From: a virus
Length of the DNA stretch: 64,000 nucleotides
Reading direction: 5' to 3' (one strand)
Virus record (IMG/VR): IMGVR_UViG_3300047300_000501
Coordinates: 1 to 64,000 of that record
The notes beneath the pieces are model-generated. The model saw nothing but the letters and a program-made list of their open reading frames with translations, did not search any database and was not told the DNA's origin. The position numbers and the translations under genes were made by a program. Positions 8,577 to 29,372 of this stretch are shown one piece after another. The stretch's first letter is position 1; every line of letters starts with the position of its first letter.

Positions 8577-8701
8577 TGGCTAAAAATAAAACTACTGAAG
8601 AGCAACTGCGTGAAAGCGGTATTGCAAAACTTGTTGCAGTAACTGGAATCACAGAGGCAGAATTAAGAGCATTGGGGATAACATCAGATGGCAACAATTA
8701 A
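8576..8701 (+). CDS. 41-aa small protein (possible fibre chaperone)
   Basis: MAKNKTTEEQLRESGIAKLVAVTGITEAELRALGITSDGNN; TAATG coupling. Confidence 0.55.
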   Translation: MAKNKTTEEQLRESGIAKLVAVTGITEAELRALGITSDGNN

Positions 8702-9311
8702 TTCAGATGGTAAAGTAGCATATATCTATAAGGACGATGTTTGGTATGCAATTGGTGGGGCTGTTAATACAAATCAAGAGTATACTTGGACTGCAGATCA
8801 GACATTTTCAGCAGTAGTCAACTTTGACATGGTAGCAAACGCTAAAGCAGGCGTTAATAATTTTCAAAATCCTACAGCAAGAAACTCAGCAATTCCATCA
8901 CCAACTAATGGTATTGTTTGTTTTGTTAGACAAGAAGATGACGGCACAGTCATTAATCAGGTCCAGTATTACCATAATGGTGAGTGGAGATATGCTTATG
9001 ATGCTTTTTCATTTTTAACTAAAACTGCAGATTACACAATAGAGAAAAAAGATTCTGGAAAAACTATCATGGTTACATCTTCAGATGATGTTGTTATTAC
9101 GGTACCTGCAAACAGCACAACACCATTTATAGTAGGGCAAAAAATCGAAATTGTTAGAAATGGTATTGGCAATGTTTCTATTGCTGGAGCGCTTGGTGTA
9201 ACTATTAATAGCAAGAATTTAAATAAAAAAATTGCTGCTCAGTTTTCTGGAGCAGTCCTTACAAAGGTTGATACAAATACCTGGTTGCTAATAGGCGATT
9301 TGACGGCGTAG
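8688..9311 (+). CDS. Tail fibre adaptor protein with C-terminal W-x-x-x-GDL domain
   Basis: RNSAIPSPTNG...ITVPANSTTPFIVG...WLLIGDLTA. Confidence 0.65.
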   Translation: MATINSDGKVAYIYKDDVWYAIGGAVNTNQEYTWTADQTFSAVVNFDMVANAKAGVNNFQNPTARNSAIPSPTNGIVCFVRQEDDGTVINQVQYYHNGEWRYAYDAFSFLTKTADYTIEKKDSGKTIMVTSSDDVVITVPANSTTPFIVGQKIEIVRNGIGNVSIAGALGVTINSKNLNKKIAAQFSGAVLTKVDTNTWLLIGDLTA

Positions 9312-9317
9312 GTTCAC

Positions 9318-26714: not shown

Positions 26715-26810
26715 TTTTAAAAGTATAAACCATTTATAGAGGGTAGAGTTTTGCTTTTTAGAAAACTCTGCTATAATTAAGTCTATTCCGTTTTTGAAAG
26801 GACGAAACAC

Positions 26811-28841
26811 ATGTCAGATTTTTTTAGTTTTAGATTAACAGATGACTTCGTAGAGAAGTTTGCAACAGCACCAAACCCATTTGGATTTAAGGATGCAGCA
26901 GAAAACTCTCTTGGAGAAATCACTTTTATTCGCACATATTCTCGTGTGAAGGAGGATGGAACTAAAGAGCGCTGGCATGAAGTATGTCGTCGTGTAATCG
27001 AAGGTATGTACTCAGTACAAAAGAATCACGCTAAGGAAAATCGTTTACCTTGGAATGATTATAAGGCTCAGAAGTCTGCACAAGAAGCATTCCAGAGAAT
27101 GTTTGAGTTGAAGTGGACACCTCCAGGACGAGGTATGTGGACATTTGGAACAGCCATGACAATGGAGAAGAGAAACTCAGCAGCACTTCAAAATTGTGCA
27201 ATGGTATCAACAAAAGATCTTGACAAGAATGATCCAGGAGCCCTATTTGCTTGGGTTATGGACGCACTGATGCTTGGCATTGGTGTTGGATTTGACACAG
27301 TGGGACAGGAAAAGAATTTTACAATCTATGCTCCAACAGAGCCAGCAGTGATTTATAATATCCCAGACACTCGTGAGGGTTGGGTAGAATCAGTTCGTCT
27401 TTTGCTAAACTCTTACCTACGACAGAACCAGCCTATTCAAAAGTTTAACTACGACCTTATCCGTCCCCTAGGAGCACCGATTAAGGGCTTTGGAGGGGTC
27501 GCTAGCGGTCCAGCACCACTTATTCAACTACATGCACAGATCGATAAGGTAGTTGGCGGTAGAGTCGGAGAAACACTTGATAGCCGTGCTATTACAGATA
27601 TTGTTAACCTTATTGGTACCTGCGTTGTATCAGGAAATGTTAGACGTTCTGCAACACTTGCTTTGGGTGCAGCAGGGGATGAAGATTTTATTAATCTAAA
27701 GAATGCTGAAGTCTTTCCAGACCGTAACTCGTTTGATCCAGAAAACCCAGGGTGGGCTTGGATGTCAAATAACTCAATTTCTGCAACAGTCGGAATGGAC
27801 TATGAAAAGTACACTGATCTGATTGTTAATAACGGAGAGCCAGGATTTATTTGGCTTGATGTTGCTCGTAACTATGGTCGTCTAGCAGATCCTGCAGATG
27901 GAAAAGACTATCGGGTTATGGGCTTCAATCCTTGTGCGGAGCAGCCATTGGAGTCGTATGAACTTTGTACTCTTGTAGAAGTTCACTTAAATCGACATGA
28001 ATCCAAGGAGGACTTCCTCAAGACATTGAAGTTTGCTTACCTTTATGGTAAAACTGTTACGTTGCTTCCAACACACTGGCAGCAGACAAACGGTATCATG
28101 CAAAGAAACCGTCGCATTGGAACTTCTCTAACTGGTATCGCATCATTCGCTGATCAAAAGGGTCTTCCTATTGTCCGTGAGTGGATGGATGAAGGCTATA
28201 ATACAATTCGTAAGTATGACCGCCAGTATTCAGAATGGCTTTGTGTACGTGAATCAATTCGTGTAACAACAGTTAAGCCATCAGGCTCCGTGTCAATTCT
28301 TTCAGGTGCAACACCTGGAGTTCACTGGGGACCTGGAGGAAACTTCTTCCTTCGTGCAATTCGTTTTGGTGATACAGATCCAATGCTTCATTTGTTTAAG
28401 GCTGCAGGGTATAAGATTGAAAAAGATGTTGTGTCAGCAAATACACAGGTAGTCTACTTCCCAGTAAAGTCAGGACATCCTCGTTCTGAAAAGGATGTAA
28501 CATTGTTTGAAAAGATTGCTCTTGCAGCAACTGCTCAAAAGTACTGGTCAGACAATGGTGTTTCTGTAACTCTATCCTTTGATAAGGAAACAGAATCAAA
28601 GCATGTTGCTCCAGCACTTCACATGTATGAGGGGCAGTTGAAAGCAGTATCATTCCTACCTATGGGAAACACTGTTTATCCTCAGCAACCATACACTCAG
28701 ATTACTGAAGAGGAATATGAGTCTTATGTCGGAGTTCTAAAGCATATTGATTTCTCTGCTATTTATGATGGCAATGAAAATCTAGAAGCAATGGGTGAAG
28801 CCTACTGTACAACAGATTATTGTGAAATTAAGGTAAAGTAA
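26811..28841 (+). CDS. nrdJ: Class II (adenosylcobalamin-dependent) ribonucleotide reductase, monomeric RTPR type
   Basis: RTYSR, PPGRG, NCA, GNVRRSA, GFNPCAEQPL, TTVKPSG, C-terminal CTTDYC. Confidence 0.92.
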   Translation: MSDFFSFRLTDDFVEKFATAPNPFGFKDAAENSLGEITFIRTYSRVKEDGTKERWHEVCRRVIEGMYSVQKNHAKENRLPWNDYKAQKSAQEAFQRMFELKWTPPGRGMWTFGTAMTMEKRNSAALQNCAMVSTKDLDKNDPGALFAWVMDALMLGIGVGFDTVGQEKNFTIYAPTEPAVIYNIPDTREGWVESVRLLLNSYLRQNQPIQKFNYDLIRPLGAPIKGFGGVASGPAPLIQLHAQIDKVVGGRVGETLDSRAITDIVNLIGTCVVSGNVRRSATLALGAAGDEDFINLKNAEVFPDRNSFDPENPGWAWMSNNSISATVGMDYEKYTDLIVNNGEPGFIWLDVARNYGRLADPADGKDYRVMGFNPCAEQPLESYELCTLVEVHLNRHESKEDFLKTLKFAYLYGKTVTLLPTHWQQTNGIMQRNRRIGTSLTGIASFADQKGLPIVREWMDEGYNTIRKYDRQYSEWLCVRESIRVTTVKPSGSVSILSGATPGVHWGPGGNFFLRAIRFGDTDPMLHLFKAAGYKIEKDVVSANTQVVYFPVKSGHPRSEKDVTLFEKIALAATAQKYWSDNGVSVTLSFDKETESKHVAPALHMYEGQLKAVSFLPMGNTVYPQQPYTQITEEEYESYVGVLKHIDFSAIYDGNENLEAMGEAYCTTDYCEIKVK

Positions 28842-29372
28842 ATGGAGGACTACGTGTCACAGATACATCACTTTAAGGCATTCATGAAGCCAGAAGATGC
28901 TGAAAAAATACATCAGCATGCTGTAAAGTTTAGTGATAGTTTTAATATGCATGGAAACAATGAAAAAGAATTTAAGGTCTACACCTATCATGAGATTGAA
29001 AAAGATGATAGACAAATTTTAGATCTTATGCAGTATTATGCCCTTAAGGTTTATAATCATGTAAAAGAAACATATGGTGGTCCATTCTTAGAATTCAATC
29101 CACACAAAACACACTTTGCACGTTTTGAAGAGGGACACGGAATGCATAGTCACTACGATGCTTCTAGGCCAAATGATATTGCTACTGTTTTATATTTAAA
29201 TAGTAACTACGATGGAGGAGAGATTTATTTTCCAGAGTATAACATAGAAATAAAGCCAGAGCCAGGAGATCTTCTATGTTTTCCAGATGAACCACACTTT
29301 GTTCATGGGGTAAAGCCAATTCTTAAGGGTACTAGATATACAACACCACGCTGGTTTCCACGCATAGTATGA
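28842..29372 (+). CDS. 2OG-Fe(II) dioxygenase, prolyl 4-hydroxylase-like
   Basis: HYD...YLNSNYDGGEIYF...FP...HGVKPI.KGTRY. Confidence 0.85.
   Translation: MEDYVSQIHHFKAFMKPEDAEKIHQHAVKFSDSFNMHGNNEKEFKVYTYHEIEKDDRQILDLMQYYALKVYNHVKETYGGPFLEFNPHKTHFARFEEGHGMHSHYDASRPNDIATVLYLNSNYDGGEIYFPEYNIEIKPEPGDLLCFPDEPHFVHGVKPILKGTRYTTPRWFPRIV

What the first reader, a model, noticed from the sequence alone, without database searches (positions are those of the whole stretch)
8688..29372. Twice-repeated module: Pro-repeat protein with a C-terminal Hint domain plus its own hydroxylase/glycosyltransferase cassette (candidate self-processing virion glycoprotein system)
Seen: the same gene order occurs twice. 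Module A: adaptor ending WLLIGDLTA (8688), PASTA-(VTP)n-Hint (9318), Cys protein, SGNH enzyme, P4H-like oxygenase, GT61-JmjC fusion. Module B: fibre ending WLVFGDLSA (19207), FN3-FN3-(F[G/S]FSP)10-Hint (21060), three related proteins, two 2OG oxygenases, a GT60-like transferase, and a second P4H after nrdJ. Known: P4H-type 2OG enzymes hydroxylate Pro; GT60 (Skp1 Gnt1) adds GlcNAc to hydroxyproline; GT61 includes protein O-GlcNAc transferases; Hint domains self-cleave through a Cys thioester. Inference: each repeat is a multi-site substrate that its neighbouring enzymes hydroxylate, glycosylate and perhaps acylate. The Hint domain would then release or ligate the product, giving a mucin/extensin-like coat at the fibre tip for host recognition, shielding or anti-grazing. 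I know of no description of this precursor-plus-tailoring logic in phages.
Basis: partly seen in the sequence, partly recalled or inferred. Interest (0 to 1): 0.93.

Follow-up and report, generated by a model that had tools for sequence, protein, structure and literature searches.

The report
Self-cleaving repeat proteins beside phage fibres
An uncultured freshwater phage encodes, after each of two fibre genes, a protein made of a cell-wall-binding head, a proline-containing repeat and a probably self-removing intein-like (Hint) end, followed by hydroxylase- and sugar-transferase-like genes that may decorate the virus particle, though no chemistry has been shown.

Summary
Both repeat proteins (9318-10802, 21060-22418) end in a 190-residue domain that Pfam and PDB sequence searches miss. 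AlphaFold2 (pLDDT 93.8) plus Foldseek show it is a Hint fold, with Cys1, T-x-x-H and terminal H-N but no +1 nucleophile, so it should self-cleave, not splice.

The family has 156 clusters at 50% identity. I found it only in metagenomic phage contigs, always C-terminal and always behind a hydrophobic X-X-Pro tract. The phage is a ~110-kb siphovirus, probably of actinobacteria.

Only fibre plus Hint is truly duplicated. The two enzyme cassettes share classes, not homologous genes. Most enzyme calls hold: P4H-like, GT61-JmjC fusion and two 2OG-fold proteins are solid. GT60-like and SGNH-like are weak, and the first of the "three related proteins" is doubtful.

In 72 related loci the order fibre-Hint-cassette is near universal, and P4H genes follow Pro-Pro tracts (Fisher 1.6e-10). 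That rests on only about three independent changes. Homologous cassettes and P4H arrays also lie far from Hint genes. A collagen-like protein (6151-6888) is a rival substrate.

Module B's FGFSP tract belongs to the class without adjacent P4H. Enzyme-on-repeat therefore remains a hypothesis.

This scan has reported the same system on at least eight other genomes. I found no publication.

The parts
8688..9311 (+). FibA: short fibre protein. Its C-terminal domain (aa ~108-207, ends WLLIGDLTA) is shared with fibre proteins.
   Evidence: Matches PHROG tail/fibre C-termini. It is 36% identical (4e-21) to a domain fused upstream of tract-Hint in P0090, and also matches P0052. It is conserved next to HintA-type genes.
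9318..10802 (+). HintA: PASTA head, three (VTP)n tracts separated by two Cys-rich modules, then a C-terminal Hint domain.
   Evidence: PASTA 7.8e-9. Translation. 60% identical to HintB over the last 200 aa.
9563..10189 (+). Three 9-nt-period arrays (9563-9670, 9858-9925, 10069-10189) that encode the VTP units.
   Evidence: TRF. The gene's 35 VTP units are written in 14 synonymous DNA versions, which indicates selection on the peptide.
10242..10799 (+). Hint domain of HintA. It starts at Cys309 (GVK|C), has TLEH, and ends THN-K-stop.
   Evidence: The fold was shown for the paralogue.
10815..11024 (+). cys69: 69-aa Cys-rich protein (CxxC...CxxCGC...CP). It marks the module-A position.
   Evidence: phrog_13558 at 5e-17. 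Found in 25 loci, mostly right after HintA-type genes, but also where no Hint domain is present.
11098..12039 (+). Weakly SGNH-like protein (G-C-S block I).
   Evidence: None of the 120 listed homologues (136 found) has a Pfam hit. A family profile hits the SGNH esterase 9otv at 6.8e-4 and TesA at ~0.09. 4 of 20 members hit Lipase_GDSL_3 weakly.
12039..12632 (+). P4H-like 2OG-Fe(II) oxygenase (p4hA).
   Evidence: PF13640 at 56.7 bits. Best solved relative is B. anthracis prolyl 4-hydroxylase at 3e-4. TET_JBP scores only 12 bits.
12620..14251 (+). GT61-type glycosyltransferase fused to a C-terminal JmjC-like cupin (HxD...H).
   Evidence: PF04577 at 46.6 bits and Cupin_2 at 2.8e-5. The C-terminus is homologous (2e-9) to a stand-alone PF08007 JmjC_2 protein in L075.
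14251..14292 (.). 19-bp-stem hairpin between the end of module A and the convergent lysozyme gene. Likely a bidirectional terminator.
19207..21036 (+). FibB: fibre protein with an Mtd_N N-terminus and a C-terminus ending WLVFGDLSA.
   Evidence: PF18454 at 1.7e-14. Many PHROG tail-fibre families match. It lies upstream of HintB-type genes in 56 loci.
21060..22418 (+). HintB: FN3 region, (F[G/S]FSP)10 tract, then a C-terminal Hint domain.
   Evidence: fn3 at 1.4e-8. Translation.
21675..21836 (+). 15-nt-period array encoding 10 F[G/S]FSP units.
   Evidence: TRF. The units are written in 8 synonymous DNA versions. Copy number and unit vary in relatives.
21858..22415 (+). Hint domain of HintB. It starts at Cys267, has TLEH, and ends THN-K-stop.
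   Evidence: AF2 pLDDT 93.8. All 47 Foldseek PDB matches with E<=1e-3 are BIL domains, inteins or hedgehog autoprocessing domains. Cys, Asn110, Gly-Asp146-147 and His-Asn are invariant.
22424..23095 (+). Unknown 223-aa protein (d1).
   Evidence: No Pfam or PHROG hit. Only E 0.032 to the next gene. Conserved in close relatives and in the remote cassette of G002.
23110..24557 (+). Two DUF6065/phrog_7084 paralogues (23110-23829 and 23805-24557).
   Evidence: phrog_7084 at 6.6e-49 and 1.9e-36. Family members are interleaved with the P4H genes in most relatives.
24533..25857 (+). Two paralogous 2OG/Fe(II)-oxygenase-fold proteins (c1 at 24533-25213, c2 at 25195-25857).
   Evidence: No Pfam hit. AF2 pLDDT 83. 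Foldseek top hits are 2rg4, 3bvc, ThoJ, FtmOx1 and PHD2. Atlas look-alikes carry PF13759.
25839..26714 (+). Probable GT-A glycosyltransferase allied to PF11397 (GT60, Skp1-Hyp GlcNAc-transferase family).
   Evidence: 19 bits against a cut-off of 21. 9 of 23 family members match PF11397, best 1e-6. No PDB hit. Not detectably similar to the clear PF11397 gene of L067.
26811..28841 (+). Class II ribonucleotide reductase (nrdJ). It lies inside the same gene run and is not a tailoring enzyme.
   Evidence: RNR_Alpha at 5.6e-31 and RNR-II_ins_dom at 9.7e-16.
28842..29372 (+). Second P4H-like oxygenase (p4hB). It travels with nrdJ and the 1250-aa gene.
   Evidence: PF13640 at 48.1 bits. B. anthracis P4H at 1.2e-5. 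34% identical to p4hA over the catalytic core. The order nrdJ-P4H-big recurs.
6151..6888 (+). Collagen-like protein outside the stated range, with 15 G-X-Y triplets and 3 X-Pro-Gly sites. It is an alternative substrate for the P4H-like enzymes.

Best explanation
Shown:
- Two paralogous fibre-module proteins share one architecture. Each has a wall- or glycan-binding head (PASTA or FN3), then a tract of short hydrophobic units each ending in Pro, then a Hint domain at the very C-terminus.
- The tract is under selection at the peptide level.
- The Hint domain has intein-type Cys1, T-x-x-H and terminal H-N, but only Lys-stop after it.

Inferred, step 1 (about 0.85):
- After folding, Cys1 makes an N-to-S acyl shift. 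This turns the last peptide bond of the tract into a thioester.
- The thioester is resolved by water or another nucleophile, so the Hint domain leaves. Asn cyclisation trims the last Lys.
- The mature protein is then head plus tract. The Hint domain acts as a removable cap that keeps the sticky tract soluble or in register until assembly, like the auto-cleaved C-terminal chaperone domains of other phage fibres.

Inferred, step 2 (about 0.7): the mature protein sits on the fibre encoded just upstream. That fibre's C-terminal domain is covalently fused to tract-Hint in other phages.

Inferred, step 3 (about 0.45 for module A, about 0.3 for module B): the co-transcribed protein-type oxygenases and glycosyltransferases modify virion proteins, with the tracts as prime candidates.
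- In module A, the P4H-like enzyme and the GT61-JmjC fusion would hydroxylate and glycosylate (VTP)n or its Cys-rich spacers.
- In module B, the DUF6065 proteins, the two 2OG-fold proteins and the GT60-like enzyme would act on the FGFSP protein in an unknown way.
For: Hint domain:
- Fold: AF2 pLDDT 93.8. All 47 significant Foldseek hits are Hint domains.
- Motifs: Cys is invariant, [ST]118 is invariant, His121 is present in both window copies, and H195-N196 is invariant. The +1 residue is Lys or another non-nucleophile.
- The domain is always C-terminal and always preceded by a tract, in the 35 of 156 clusters that I read.

Tract: 35 VTP units are written in 14 synonymous versions and 10 FGFSP units in 8.

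Fibre link: adjacency in 56 loci, and fusions in P0090 (4e-21) and P0052.

Enzymes:
- PF13640 hits, with B. anthracis P4H as the best solved relative.
- The GT61-JmjC fusion.
- The 2OG fold of c1/c2.
- Relatives add Sulfotransfer_2, Asp/Asn beta-hydroxylase, a clear PF11397 GT60 gene two genes after a P4H, a JmjC_2 protein and a methyltransferase.

Synteny: fibre-Hint-cassette recurs across Hint proteins down to ~35% identity.

Covariation: 32 of 33 Pro-Pro tracts have a P4H and 15 of 16 other tracts have none (rho 0.76, Fisher 1.6e-10). Within the window's own lineage, module A with (VTP)n has P4H and GT61, while sister contigs with FSPF-type module-A tracts lack both.

Genome-wide: both PF13640 genes of this genome lie in the two modules.
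Against: - No cleavage, hydroxylation or glycosylation has been observed.
- About half of the wider family has Gln or Glu in place of the block-B His.
- On the Hint tree the tract type changes only 3 times, giving 1-3 independent pairs. The covariation cannot reach significance once kinship is allowed for.
- Exceptions exist. L052 has a Pro-Pro tract and no P4H within 9 kb. L024 has a P4H after a tract protein with no Hint domain.
- One complete genome (G002) has two Hint genes but keeps homologues of this window's cassette about 45 kb away, among non-structural genes.
- G001 has a second array of five P4H-like genes with no Hint gene nearby.
- nrdJ lies within the same gene run.
- The collagen-like protein at 6151-6888 has classical X-Pro-Gly sites.
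- For the closest viral precedent, PBCV-1, hydroxyproline could not be detected in virions (PMC7019647).
Confidence: 0.5

Rival explanations
1. The Hint proteins are as described, but the cassettes act on other phage proteins. The main candidates are the collagen-like fibre protein (6151-6888) and similar fibre proteins. The P4H-like enzymes would hydroxylate X-Pro-Gly sites. The GT61-JmjC fusion would hydroxylate and glycosylate side chains, as collagen-modifying enzymes do.
For: - A collagen-like ORF with 15 G-X-Y triplets and 3 X-Pro-Gly sites lies 5 kb upstream of p4hA.
- The best solved relative of both P4H-like proteins is the B. anthracis enzyme, deposited as a procollagen-proline dioxygenase.
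- In G001 and G003 a collagen-like gene directly follows the P4H array.
- An oxygenase-glycosyltransferase fusion recalls collagen lysyl hydroxylase/glycosyltransferases. This is my own knowledge and was not tested here.
Against: - The collagen-like genes of the P4H-rich genomes G001 and G003 have no X-Pro-Gly site at all. The P4H-poor G002 has one such site.
- P4H number therefore tracks tract type rather than collagen content, in this small sample.
Confidence: 0.2
2. The oxygenase and transferase genes are cargo of a variable island that merely sits between fibre genes and nrdJ. They act on host proteins, the host envelope or small molecules during infection, not on the virion.
For: - nrdJ lies in the same run.
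- Cassette content is highly variable between relatives.
- Homologous cassettes and P4H arrays occur among non-structural genes, near kinase-like, peroxidase-like and carbamoyltransferase-like ORFs. I read those names from sequence motifs and did not test them.
- PF05118 and PF13640 both include enzymes with non-virion substrates (my own knowledge).
Against: - The gene order is tight and nearly universal, with overlapping or abutting genes behind the Hint gene.
- The raw association of P4H number with tract type is unexpected for cargo.
- In L067 a P4H and a clear PF11397 gene follow a Pro-rich tract gene. This is the enzyme pair known for Pro hydroxylation followed by GlcNAc addition (the pathway is my own knowledge).
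Confidence: 0.2
3. The enzymes hydroxylate and glycosylate phage DNA bases, in a hypermodification pathway placed next to nrdJ.
For: - nrdJ is adjacent.
- The DUF6065 protein's nearest named Atlas look-alikes, with its own family excluded, are dCTP-deaminase-like. The score is only 0.77, in the range that shuffled proteins often reach.
Against: - TET_JBP scores 12-13 bits (cut-off 34.9), against 49-58 bits for PF13640 on the same ORFs.
- The other families present (GT61, PF11397, JmjC_2, Asp/Asn hydroxylase, Sulfotransfer_2) are known for protein or glycan substrates.
Confidence: 0.03
4. The Hint-like domain no longer cleaves. It stays on the virion as a structural or adhesive end domain.
For: - The block-B His is Gln or Glu in about half of the family.
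- The window's subfamily has an insertion of about 20 residues after Cys1.
- No cleavage data exist.
Against: - Cys1, Thr/Ser118, Gly-Asp146-147 and the terminal His-Asn are invariant across proteins that share only ~30% identity. This is hard to explain without catalysis.
- Both window copies keep the His.
Confidence: 0.1

Closest known systems
Bacterial intein-like (BIL) domains (e.g. Clostridium thermocellum BIL, PDB 2lwy; Tetrahymena BUBL BIL2, PDB 6y75)
   Same: They share the Hint fold and are the top structural matches. Both have Cys1 and a terminal His-Asn without a +1 nucleophile, so cleavage or transfer is expected rather than splicing.
   Different: There is no sequence-level match to any Pfam Hint family or PDB chain. 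The domain here sits at the extreme C-terminus with 1-14 residues after Asn. It is always preceded by a hydrophobic X-X-Pro tract and is confined to phage contigs.
Hedgehog/Hog C-terminal autoprocessing domains (PDB 1at0, 6tyy)
   Same: The layout is cargo domain, then a C-terminal Hint domain that releases the cargo through a thioester. Structural matches are at 2e-5 to 4e-5.
   Different: There is no sterol-recognition extension after the Hint core, because the protein ends right after His-Asn-Lys. Hedgehog lacks the terminal His-Asn (my own knowledge).
Auto-cleaved C-terminal intramolecular chaperone domains of phage fibres and tailspikes (Peptidase_S74 type)
   Same: Same proposed logic: a C-terminal domain of a fibre-module protein that helps assembly and then removes itself (my own knowledge of that family).
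   Different: Different fold and chemistry. Those domains use a Ser-Lys dyad, not a Hint thioester. No S74 match was seen in the Pfam scans.
Chlorovirus PBCV-1 prolyl 4-hydroxylase with that virus's Pro-rich repeat peptides
   Same: A virus encodes both a small P4H and proteins with short Pro-containing repeats. [quoted passage not shown]
   Different: That is a eukaryotic virus, with no Hint cap and no fibre context. Its role is still unknown, and hydroxyproline was not found in its virions.
Virion glycosylation of mycobacteriophages by phage-encoded glycosyltransferases (Freeman et al. 2023, doi 10.1016/j.chom.2023.05.028)
   Same: Actinobacterial phages carry glycosyltransferase genes beside structural genes that glycosylate their own virion proteins. 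I saw the reference cited. The paper was not held, so its content is my own knowledge.
   Different: In that case the capsid and tail-tube subunits are the substrates. No oxygenases, repeat tracts or Hint domains are involved.

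Membership tests
Hint (Hedgehog/intein) superfamily | Hint fold | tested here: met
   The AF2 model has pLDDT 93.8. 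All 47 Foldseek PDB matches with E<=1e-3 are Hint domains, the best being 6y75 at 5.9e-7.
Hint (Hedgehog/intein) superfamily | N-terminal nucleophile (block A Cys/Ser) and block B T-x-x-H | tested here: met
   Cys is invariant in 34 of 34 sequences. [ST]118 is invariant. His121 is present in both window copies but in only 18 of 34 family members.
Hint (Hedgehog/intein) superfamily | Match to a curated sequence model (Pfam Hint families) | tested here: not met
   No Pfam Hint family matches at E<=0.01. No PDB chain matches by sequence.
Hint (Hedgehog/intein) superfamily | Self-cleavage demonstrated | not testable with these tools
   This needs expression of the protein and Cys-to-Ala controls.
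Inteins (protein splicing) | C-extein starting with Cys/Ser/Thr, so that the flanks are ligated | tested here: not met
   Both copies end His-Asn-Lys-stop. The +1 residue in the family is mostly Lys, Arg, Gly or Leu.
Hedgehog/Hog proteins | Sterol/adduct-recognition region after the Hint core | tested here: not met
   The protein ends one residue after the Hint core.
Prolyl 4-hydroxylase-type 2OG oxygenases (PF13640) | Model match above the curated cut-off, and the HxD...H iron triad | tested here: met
   56.7 and 48.1 bits against a cut-off of 27. H-I-D...H (p4hA) and H-Y-D...H (p4hB) can be read in the translations.
Prolyl 4-hydroxylase-type 2OG oxygenases (PF13640) | Proline as the hydroxylated residue | not testable with these tools
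   The best solved relatives are P4H and P3H, but only at E 3e-4 to 1e-5. PiuC-type hydroxylases score nearly as well.
GT61 glycosyltransferases (PF04577) | Model match above the cut-off | tested here: met
   46.6 bits against a cut-off of 27. Only profile positions 79-136 of 137 are covered. No solved relative by sequence.
GT60 / PF11397 (Skp1-hydroxyproline GlcNAc-transferase family) | Model match above the cut-off | tested here: inconclusive
   The window protein scores 19 bits against a cut-off of 21. 9 of 23 homologues match, best 1e-6. There is no detectable similarity to the clear PF11397 gene of L067.
SGNH/GDSL hydrolases | Conserved blocks I-V, or a model match | tested here: inconclusive
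   No Pfam match. The family profile hits an SGNH esterase at 6.8e-4 over blocks I-II only. G-C-S replaces G-D-S in block I.
2OG/Fe(II) oxygenase superfamily (c1, c2) | Double-stranded beta-helix fold with metal-binding His residues | tested here: met
   AF2 pLDDT 83, and Foldseek finds 60 matches at E<=1e-3; those listed are almost all 2OG/non-haem-iron oxygenases. H135, H137, H146 and H188 are invariant. No Pfam model matches.
DUF6065 (PF19541) / phrog_7084 | Model match | tested here: met
   phrog_7084 matches d2 at 6.6e-49 and d3 at 1.9e-36. Pfam matches d2 only below its cut-off. d1 matches neither.

The most novel reading that the evidence does not exclude
The Hint thioester is not simply hydrolysed. 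It would be captured by an amine or hydroxyl of a partner: the upstream fibre protein, another virion protein, or a cell-wall component reached by the PASTA/FN3 head. The head-plus-tract would thus be ligated covalently without any enzyme. This would be a phage counterpart of hedgehog cholesteroylation or BIL-mediated ubiquitin-like conjugation. The neighbouring oxygenases and transferases would tune the tract beforehand.
Probability: 0.12. Interest if true: 0.9.

Novelty: new variant of a known kind. Interest (0 to 1): 0.62.

Why it matters
If the proposed steps hold, three things follow.
- Aquatic phages would use intein-type chemistry to mature or attach fibre-tip proteins.
- Phage 2OG-oxygenase, sulfotransferase and glycosyltransferase genes, which surveys often file as auxiliary metabolic genes (the P4H papers found include such surveys), would instead decorate the virion.
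- That would change how such genes are counted in viral ecology. It would also give host-recognition studies of uncultured actinobacterial phages a concrete and easily expressed target.

The Hint domain itself is small, very divergent from known ones, and naturally built for N-terminal cleavage only. That could be useful as a protein-engineering tool.

Tried and rejected
- Sequence searches for the Hint domain against Pfam, PHROGs and PDB gave nothing. Only structure settled the question.
- megablast and tblastn against 50,697 isolate phage records found no match for the region or for either Hint domain.
- A scan of 185,579 species genomes found one hit, at a contig end of a Bacteroidia MAG. 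I did not follow it up.
- The search for related loci with the whole-family alignment failed because no stretch was conserved enough. Sub-alignments worked.
Contexts of the most distant clusters could therefore not be read.
The FibA-HintA contact was not tested.
- Pfam scans of the c1/c2 family gave only noise. The PDB sequence search for c1 also gave only noise.
- No PDB match was found for the GT61 fusion or for the GT family profile.
- The promoter scan equalled shuffled expectation (66 vs 67.8). Apart from one hairpin, the terminator scan was not informative.
- The WhiB model matched only below its cut-off in this genome.
- Sequencing runs: one full holder, a freshwater metagenome that may be the source, and no RNA holder listed.
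- Literature searches for Hint domains in phage fibres, for P4H in phages and for freshwater actinophages found no description of this system.
- I considered cys69 as a partner of the Hint domain and dropped the idea. It also occurs where the module-A protein has no Hint domain.

Full report
WHAT IS THERE

The window is the first 64 kb of a 74.2-kb IMG/VR contig that CheckV rates 68% complete. It carries portal, protease, major capsid and minor tail genes, and a 2310-aa tape-measure gene. It also carries DnaB, primase and a DnaE-type polymerase that is 57-58% identical to those of ~127-kb Streptomyces siphoviruses. Complete relatives are 109-116 kb.

The host is therefore probably an aquatic actinobacterium. 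The PASTA domain fits this, and so does an ORF in a relative that reads like WhiB; I judged that one by eye only. A WhiB model reaches only sub-threshold in this genome, so the host remains an inference.

THE HINT DOMAIN

The last ~200 residues of 9318-10802 and 21060-22418 are 60% identical. They match no Pfam or PHROG family and no PDB sequence.

An exhaustive profile-free search found 156 clusters at 50% identity with E<=1e-3. In the 35 full-length members I read, the domain is at the C-terminus. It directly follows a low-complexity tract of short hydrophobic units ending in Pro, such as FGFSP, FFAPPG, PTPV, YSFTP, IIATP and FFPP.

With a 34-sequence alignment, AlphaFold2 gave pLDDT 93.8. 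All 47 Foldseek PDB matches at E<=1e-3 are bacterial intein-like domains, inteins or hedgehog autoprocessing domains.

Conservation:
- Invariant columns are Cys12 (Cys267 in HintB, Cys309 in HintA), Asn110, Gly146-Asp147 and His195-Asn196.
- The block-B Thr/Ser is invariant.
- The block-B His is present in both window copies (TLEH) but in only 18 of 34 family members.
- After His-Asn come Lys and the stop codon, so there is no +1 nucleophile.

This is the residue set for N-terminal thioester formation and Asn cyclisation, not for splicing. I rate self-removal at about 0.85. It has not been shown.

THE TRACTS

TRF finds three 9-nt arrays in HintA and one 15-nt array in HintB. The 35 VTP units are written in 14 synonymous DNA versions. 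The 10 F[G/S]FSP units are written in 8. The peptide, not the DNA repeat, is what is kept.

Unit type and number differ between close relatives. One relative carries a frameshift inside the tract.

LINK TO THE FIBRES

- A fibre gene precedes the Hint gene in 56 loci.
- FibA's C-terminal domain is 36% identical (4e-21) to a domain that lies in one polypeptide with Cys-rich modules, a Pro tract and a Hint domain in P0090. It matches P0052 more weakly.
- Between the window's own two fibre proteins, the shared C-terminus is only marginal (E 0.003).
- A complex prediction could not be run.

THE ENZYMES

- p4hA and p4hB match PF13640 above its cut-off. Their best solved relative is the B. anthracis prolyl 4-hydroxylase, followed by P3H1 and PiuC, all at weak E-values. 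TET_JBP scores only 12-13 bits on the same ORFs.
- 12620-14251 is a GT61 domain fused to a cupin. The cupin is homologous to a stand-alone JmjC_2 protein.
- c1 and c2 have no Pfam hit but model as 2OG/Fe(II) oxygenase folds.
- The 291-aa GT is just under the PF11397 cut-off, and 9 of 23 homologues match that family.
- The 'SGNH' protein is supported only by a profile hit of 6.8e-4.
- d2 and d3 are DUF6065/phrog_7084. d1 is not demonstrably related to them.

IS THE MODULE REPEATED?

Only the fibre-plus-Hint pair is homologous between the two modules. The cassettes repeat enzyme classes (a P4H-like oxygenase and a glycosyltransferase), not genes. p4hA and p4hB share 34% identity over the catalytic core.

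Three scans gave 75 related viral loci. Gene order is strikingly constant:
- Module-B type: fibre, Hint, usually a Sulfotransfer_2 gene and an Asp/Asn beta-hydroxylase gene, then a variable set, then nrdJ. The variable set holds one to seven P4H-like genes, DUF6065, c-type oxygenases, a methyltransferase and a JmjC protein.
- Module-A type: fibre, Hint, cys69, then either the SGNH-like gene or a P4H, a 186-aa gene and a clear PF11397 GT60 gene.

Tract type goes with cassette type. Of 33 tracts with five or more Pro-Pro pairs, 32 have a P4H in the cassette. Of 16 other tracts, 15 have none (Spearman 0.76, Fisher 1.6e-10).

Within the window's own lineage, module A with (VTP)n has P4H and GT61-JmjC. 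The sister contigs L003 and L005, with FSPF-type module-A tracts, lack both.

WHY THIS IS NOT YET PROOF

- On a tree of the Hint domains, tract type changes three times and P4H presence four times. Only one to three independent pairs exist, so no sign test can be significant. The large counts are mostly inheritance.
- G002 is complete and has two Hint genes. Its homologues of this window's module-B cassette (d1, d3, c1, GT, P4H-like, three SGNH-like, JmjC) lie about 45 kb away, among non-structural genes.
- G001 has a second array of five P4H-like genes with no Hint gene nearby.
- nrdJ sits in the same tight gene run.
- L052 and L024 are exceptions in either direction.
- A collagen-like protein at 6151-6888 has 15 G-X-Y triplets and three X-Pro-Gly sites. 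It is a classical P4H substrate candidate that the finding did not include. Against that rival, the collagen-like genes of the P4H-rich genomes have no X-Pro-Gly site.
- Module B's FGFSP tract belongs to the class whose relatives never have an adjacent P4H. Its P4H travels with nrdJ and the 1250-aa gene.

COMPARISON WITH WHAT IS KNOWN

The domain works like a BIL or Hog autoprocessing domain but is not a member by sequence. It lacks the hedgehog sterol-recognition region and the intein +1 nucleophile. Functionally it resembles the auto-cleaved chaperone ends of other phage fibres, with different chemistry.

Virus-encoded P4H with Pro-repeat peptides is known from PBCV-1. There the role is still unknown, and hydroxyproline was not detected in virions (PMC7019647). 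Virion glycosylation by phage glycosyltransferases is known from mycobacteriophages (Freeman et al. 2023, seen cited; the paper was not held).

My literature searches found no description of tract-Hint proteins or of this cassette logic in phages.

This scan has already reported the same system on at least eight other genomes. My analysis reached the Hint fold and the covariation before I read those notes. It adds three things: the phylogenetic caution, the remote cassettes and the collagen-like rival.

VERDICT

The finding is a new variant of known kinds, and it can be tested with a few expression constructs.

Noticed in passing
window 6151-6888 (+): Collagen-like protein with 15 G-X-Y triplets, including GSPG, GKPG and GPPG, in the structural block upstream of module A. 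It is a possible P4H substrate.
   Followed up: partly
window 14298-14888 (-) and 14251-14292: An SLT-type lysozyme-like gene with an N-terminal hydrophobic segment is the only sizeable minus-strand gene in the region. It converges on module A across a hairpin with a 19-bp stem.
   Followed up: partly
window 9672-9857 and 9926-10068 (within HintA): Two Cys-rich spacer modules lie between the VTP tracts. The second (C..P.TITN....TC.ELG...LGG......CCG) recurs in unrelated family members (P0004, P0085, P0108), so it looks like a small disulfide-rich domain.
   Followed up: no
L024 1322-1783; L031 122-676: Module-A proteins with a PASTA head and an FSPF-type tract end in a Cys-rich knot instead of a Hint domain. 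The tract can evidently be capped in two ways.
   Followed up: no
L004 2329-3640: The HintB homologue is split by a frameshift inside the repeat tract. This could be an assembly error or real slippage.
   Followed up: no
G002 (L088-L089), about 78-95 kb of that contig: A remote cassette holds homologues of d1, d3, c1, the GT, P4H-like genes, three SGNH-like genes and a JmjC gene. It also holds a 478-aa ORF that looks like a carbamoyltransferase, and has P-loop kinase-like and WhiB-like ORFs nearby. I read those last names from motifs and did not test them.
   Followed up: partly
G001 (L082-L083), 78.0-81.6 kb of that contig: An array of five P4H-like genes is interrupted by a 169-aa ORF that looks like a glutathione peroxidase (untested). 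It is far from any Hint gene.
   Followed up: no
G001 33129-34232 (-) and G003 76443-77564 (-): A collagen-like gene (GAT/GPK triplets, no X-Pro-Gly site) directly follows the last gene of the P4H array.
   Followed up: partly
P0139, P0143: In two distant family members the Hint-like domain is internal, with several hundred residues after His-Asn-Lys. This is closer to a classical BIL arrangement.
   Followed up: no
window 26811-28841 (+): A class II ribonucleotide reductase gene sits between fibre-module genes and the portal gene. This is an odd place for a nucleotide-metabolism gene, and it is conserved in relatives.
   Followed up: no
window 9971-10192 (-) and similar ORFs in loci: Open frames on the opposite strand of the tracts (for example a GVT repeat) are by-products of the repeat. 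They gave spurious minus-strand 'Hint' hits in my phmmer screen.
   Followed up: yes
L078 (Bacteroidia MAG contig JBBALJ010000057.1, contig end): This is the only hit to the Hint family in 185,579 species genomes. It is probably a binned phage fragment.
   Followed up: no
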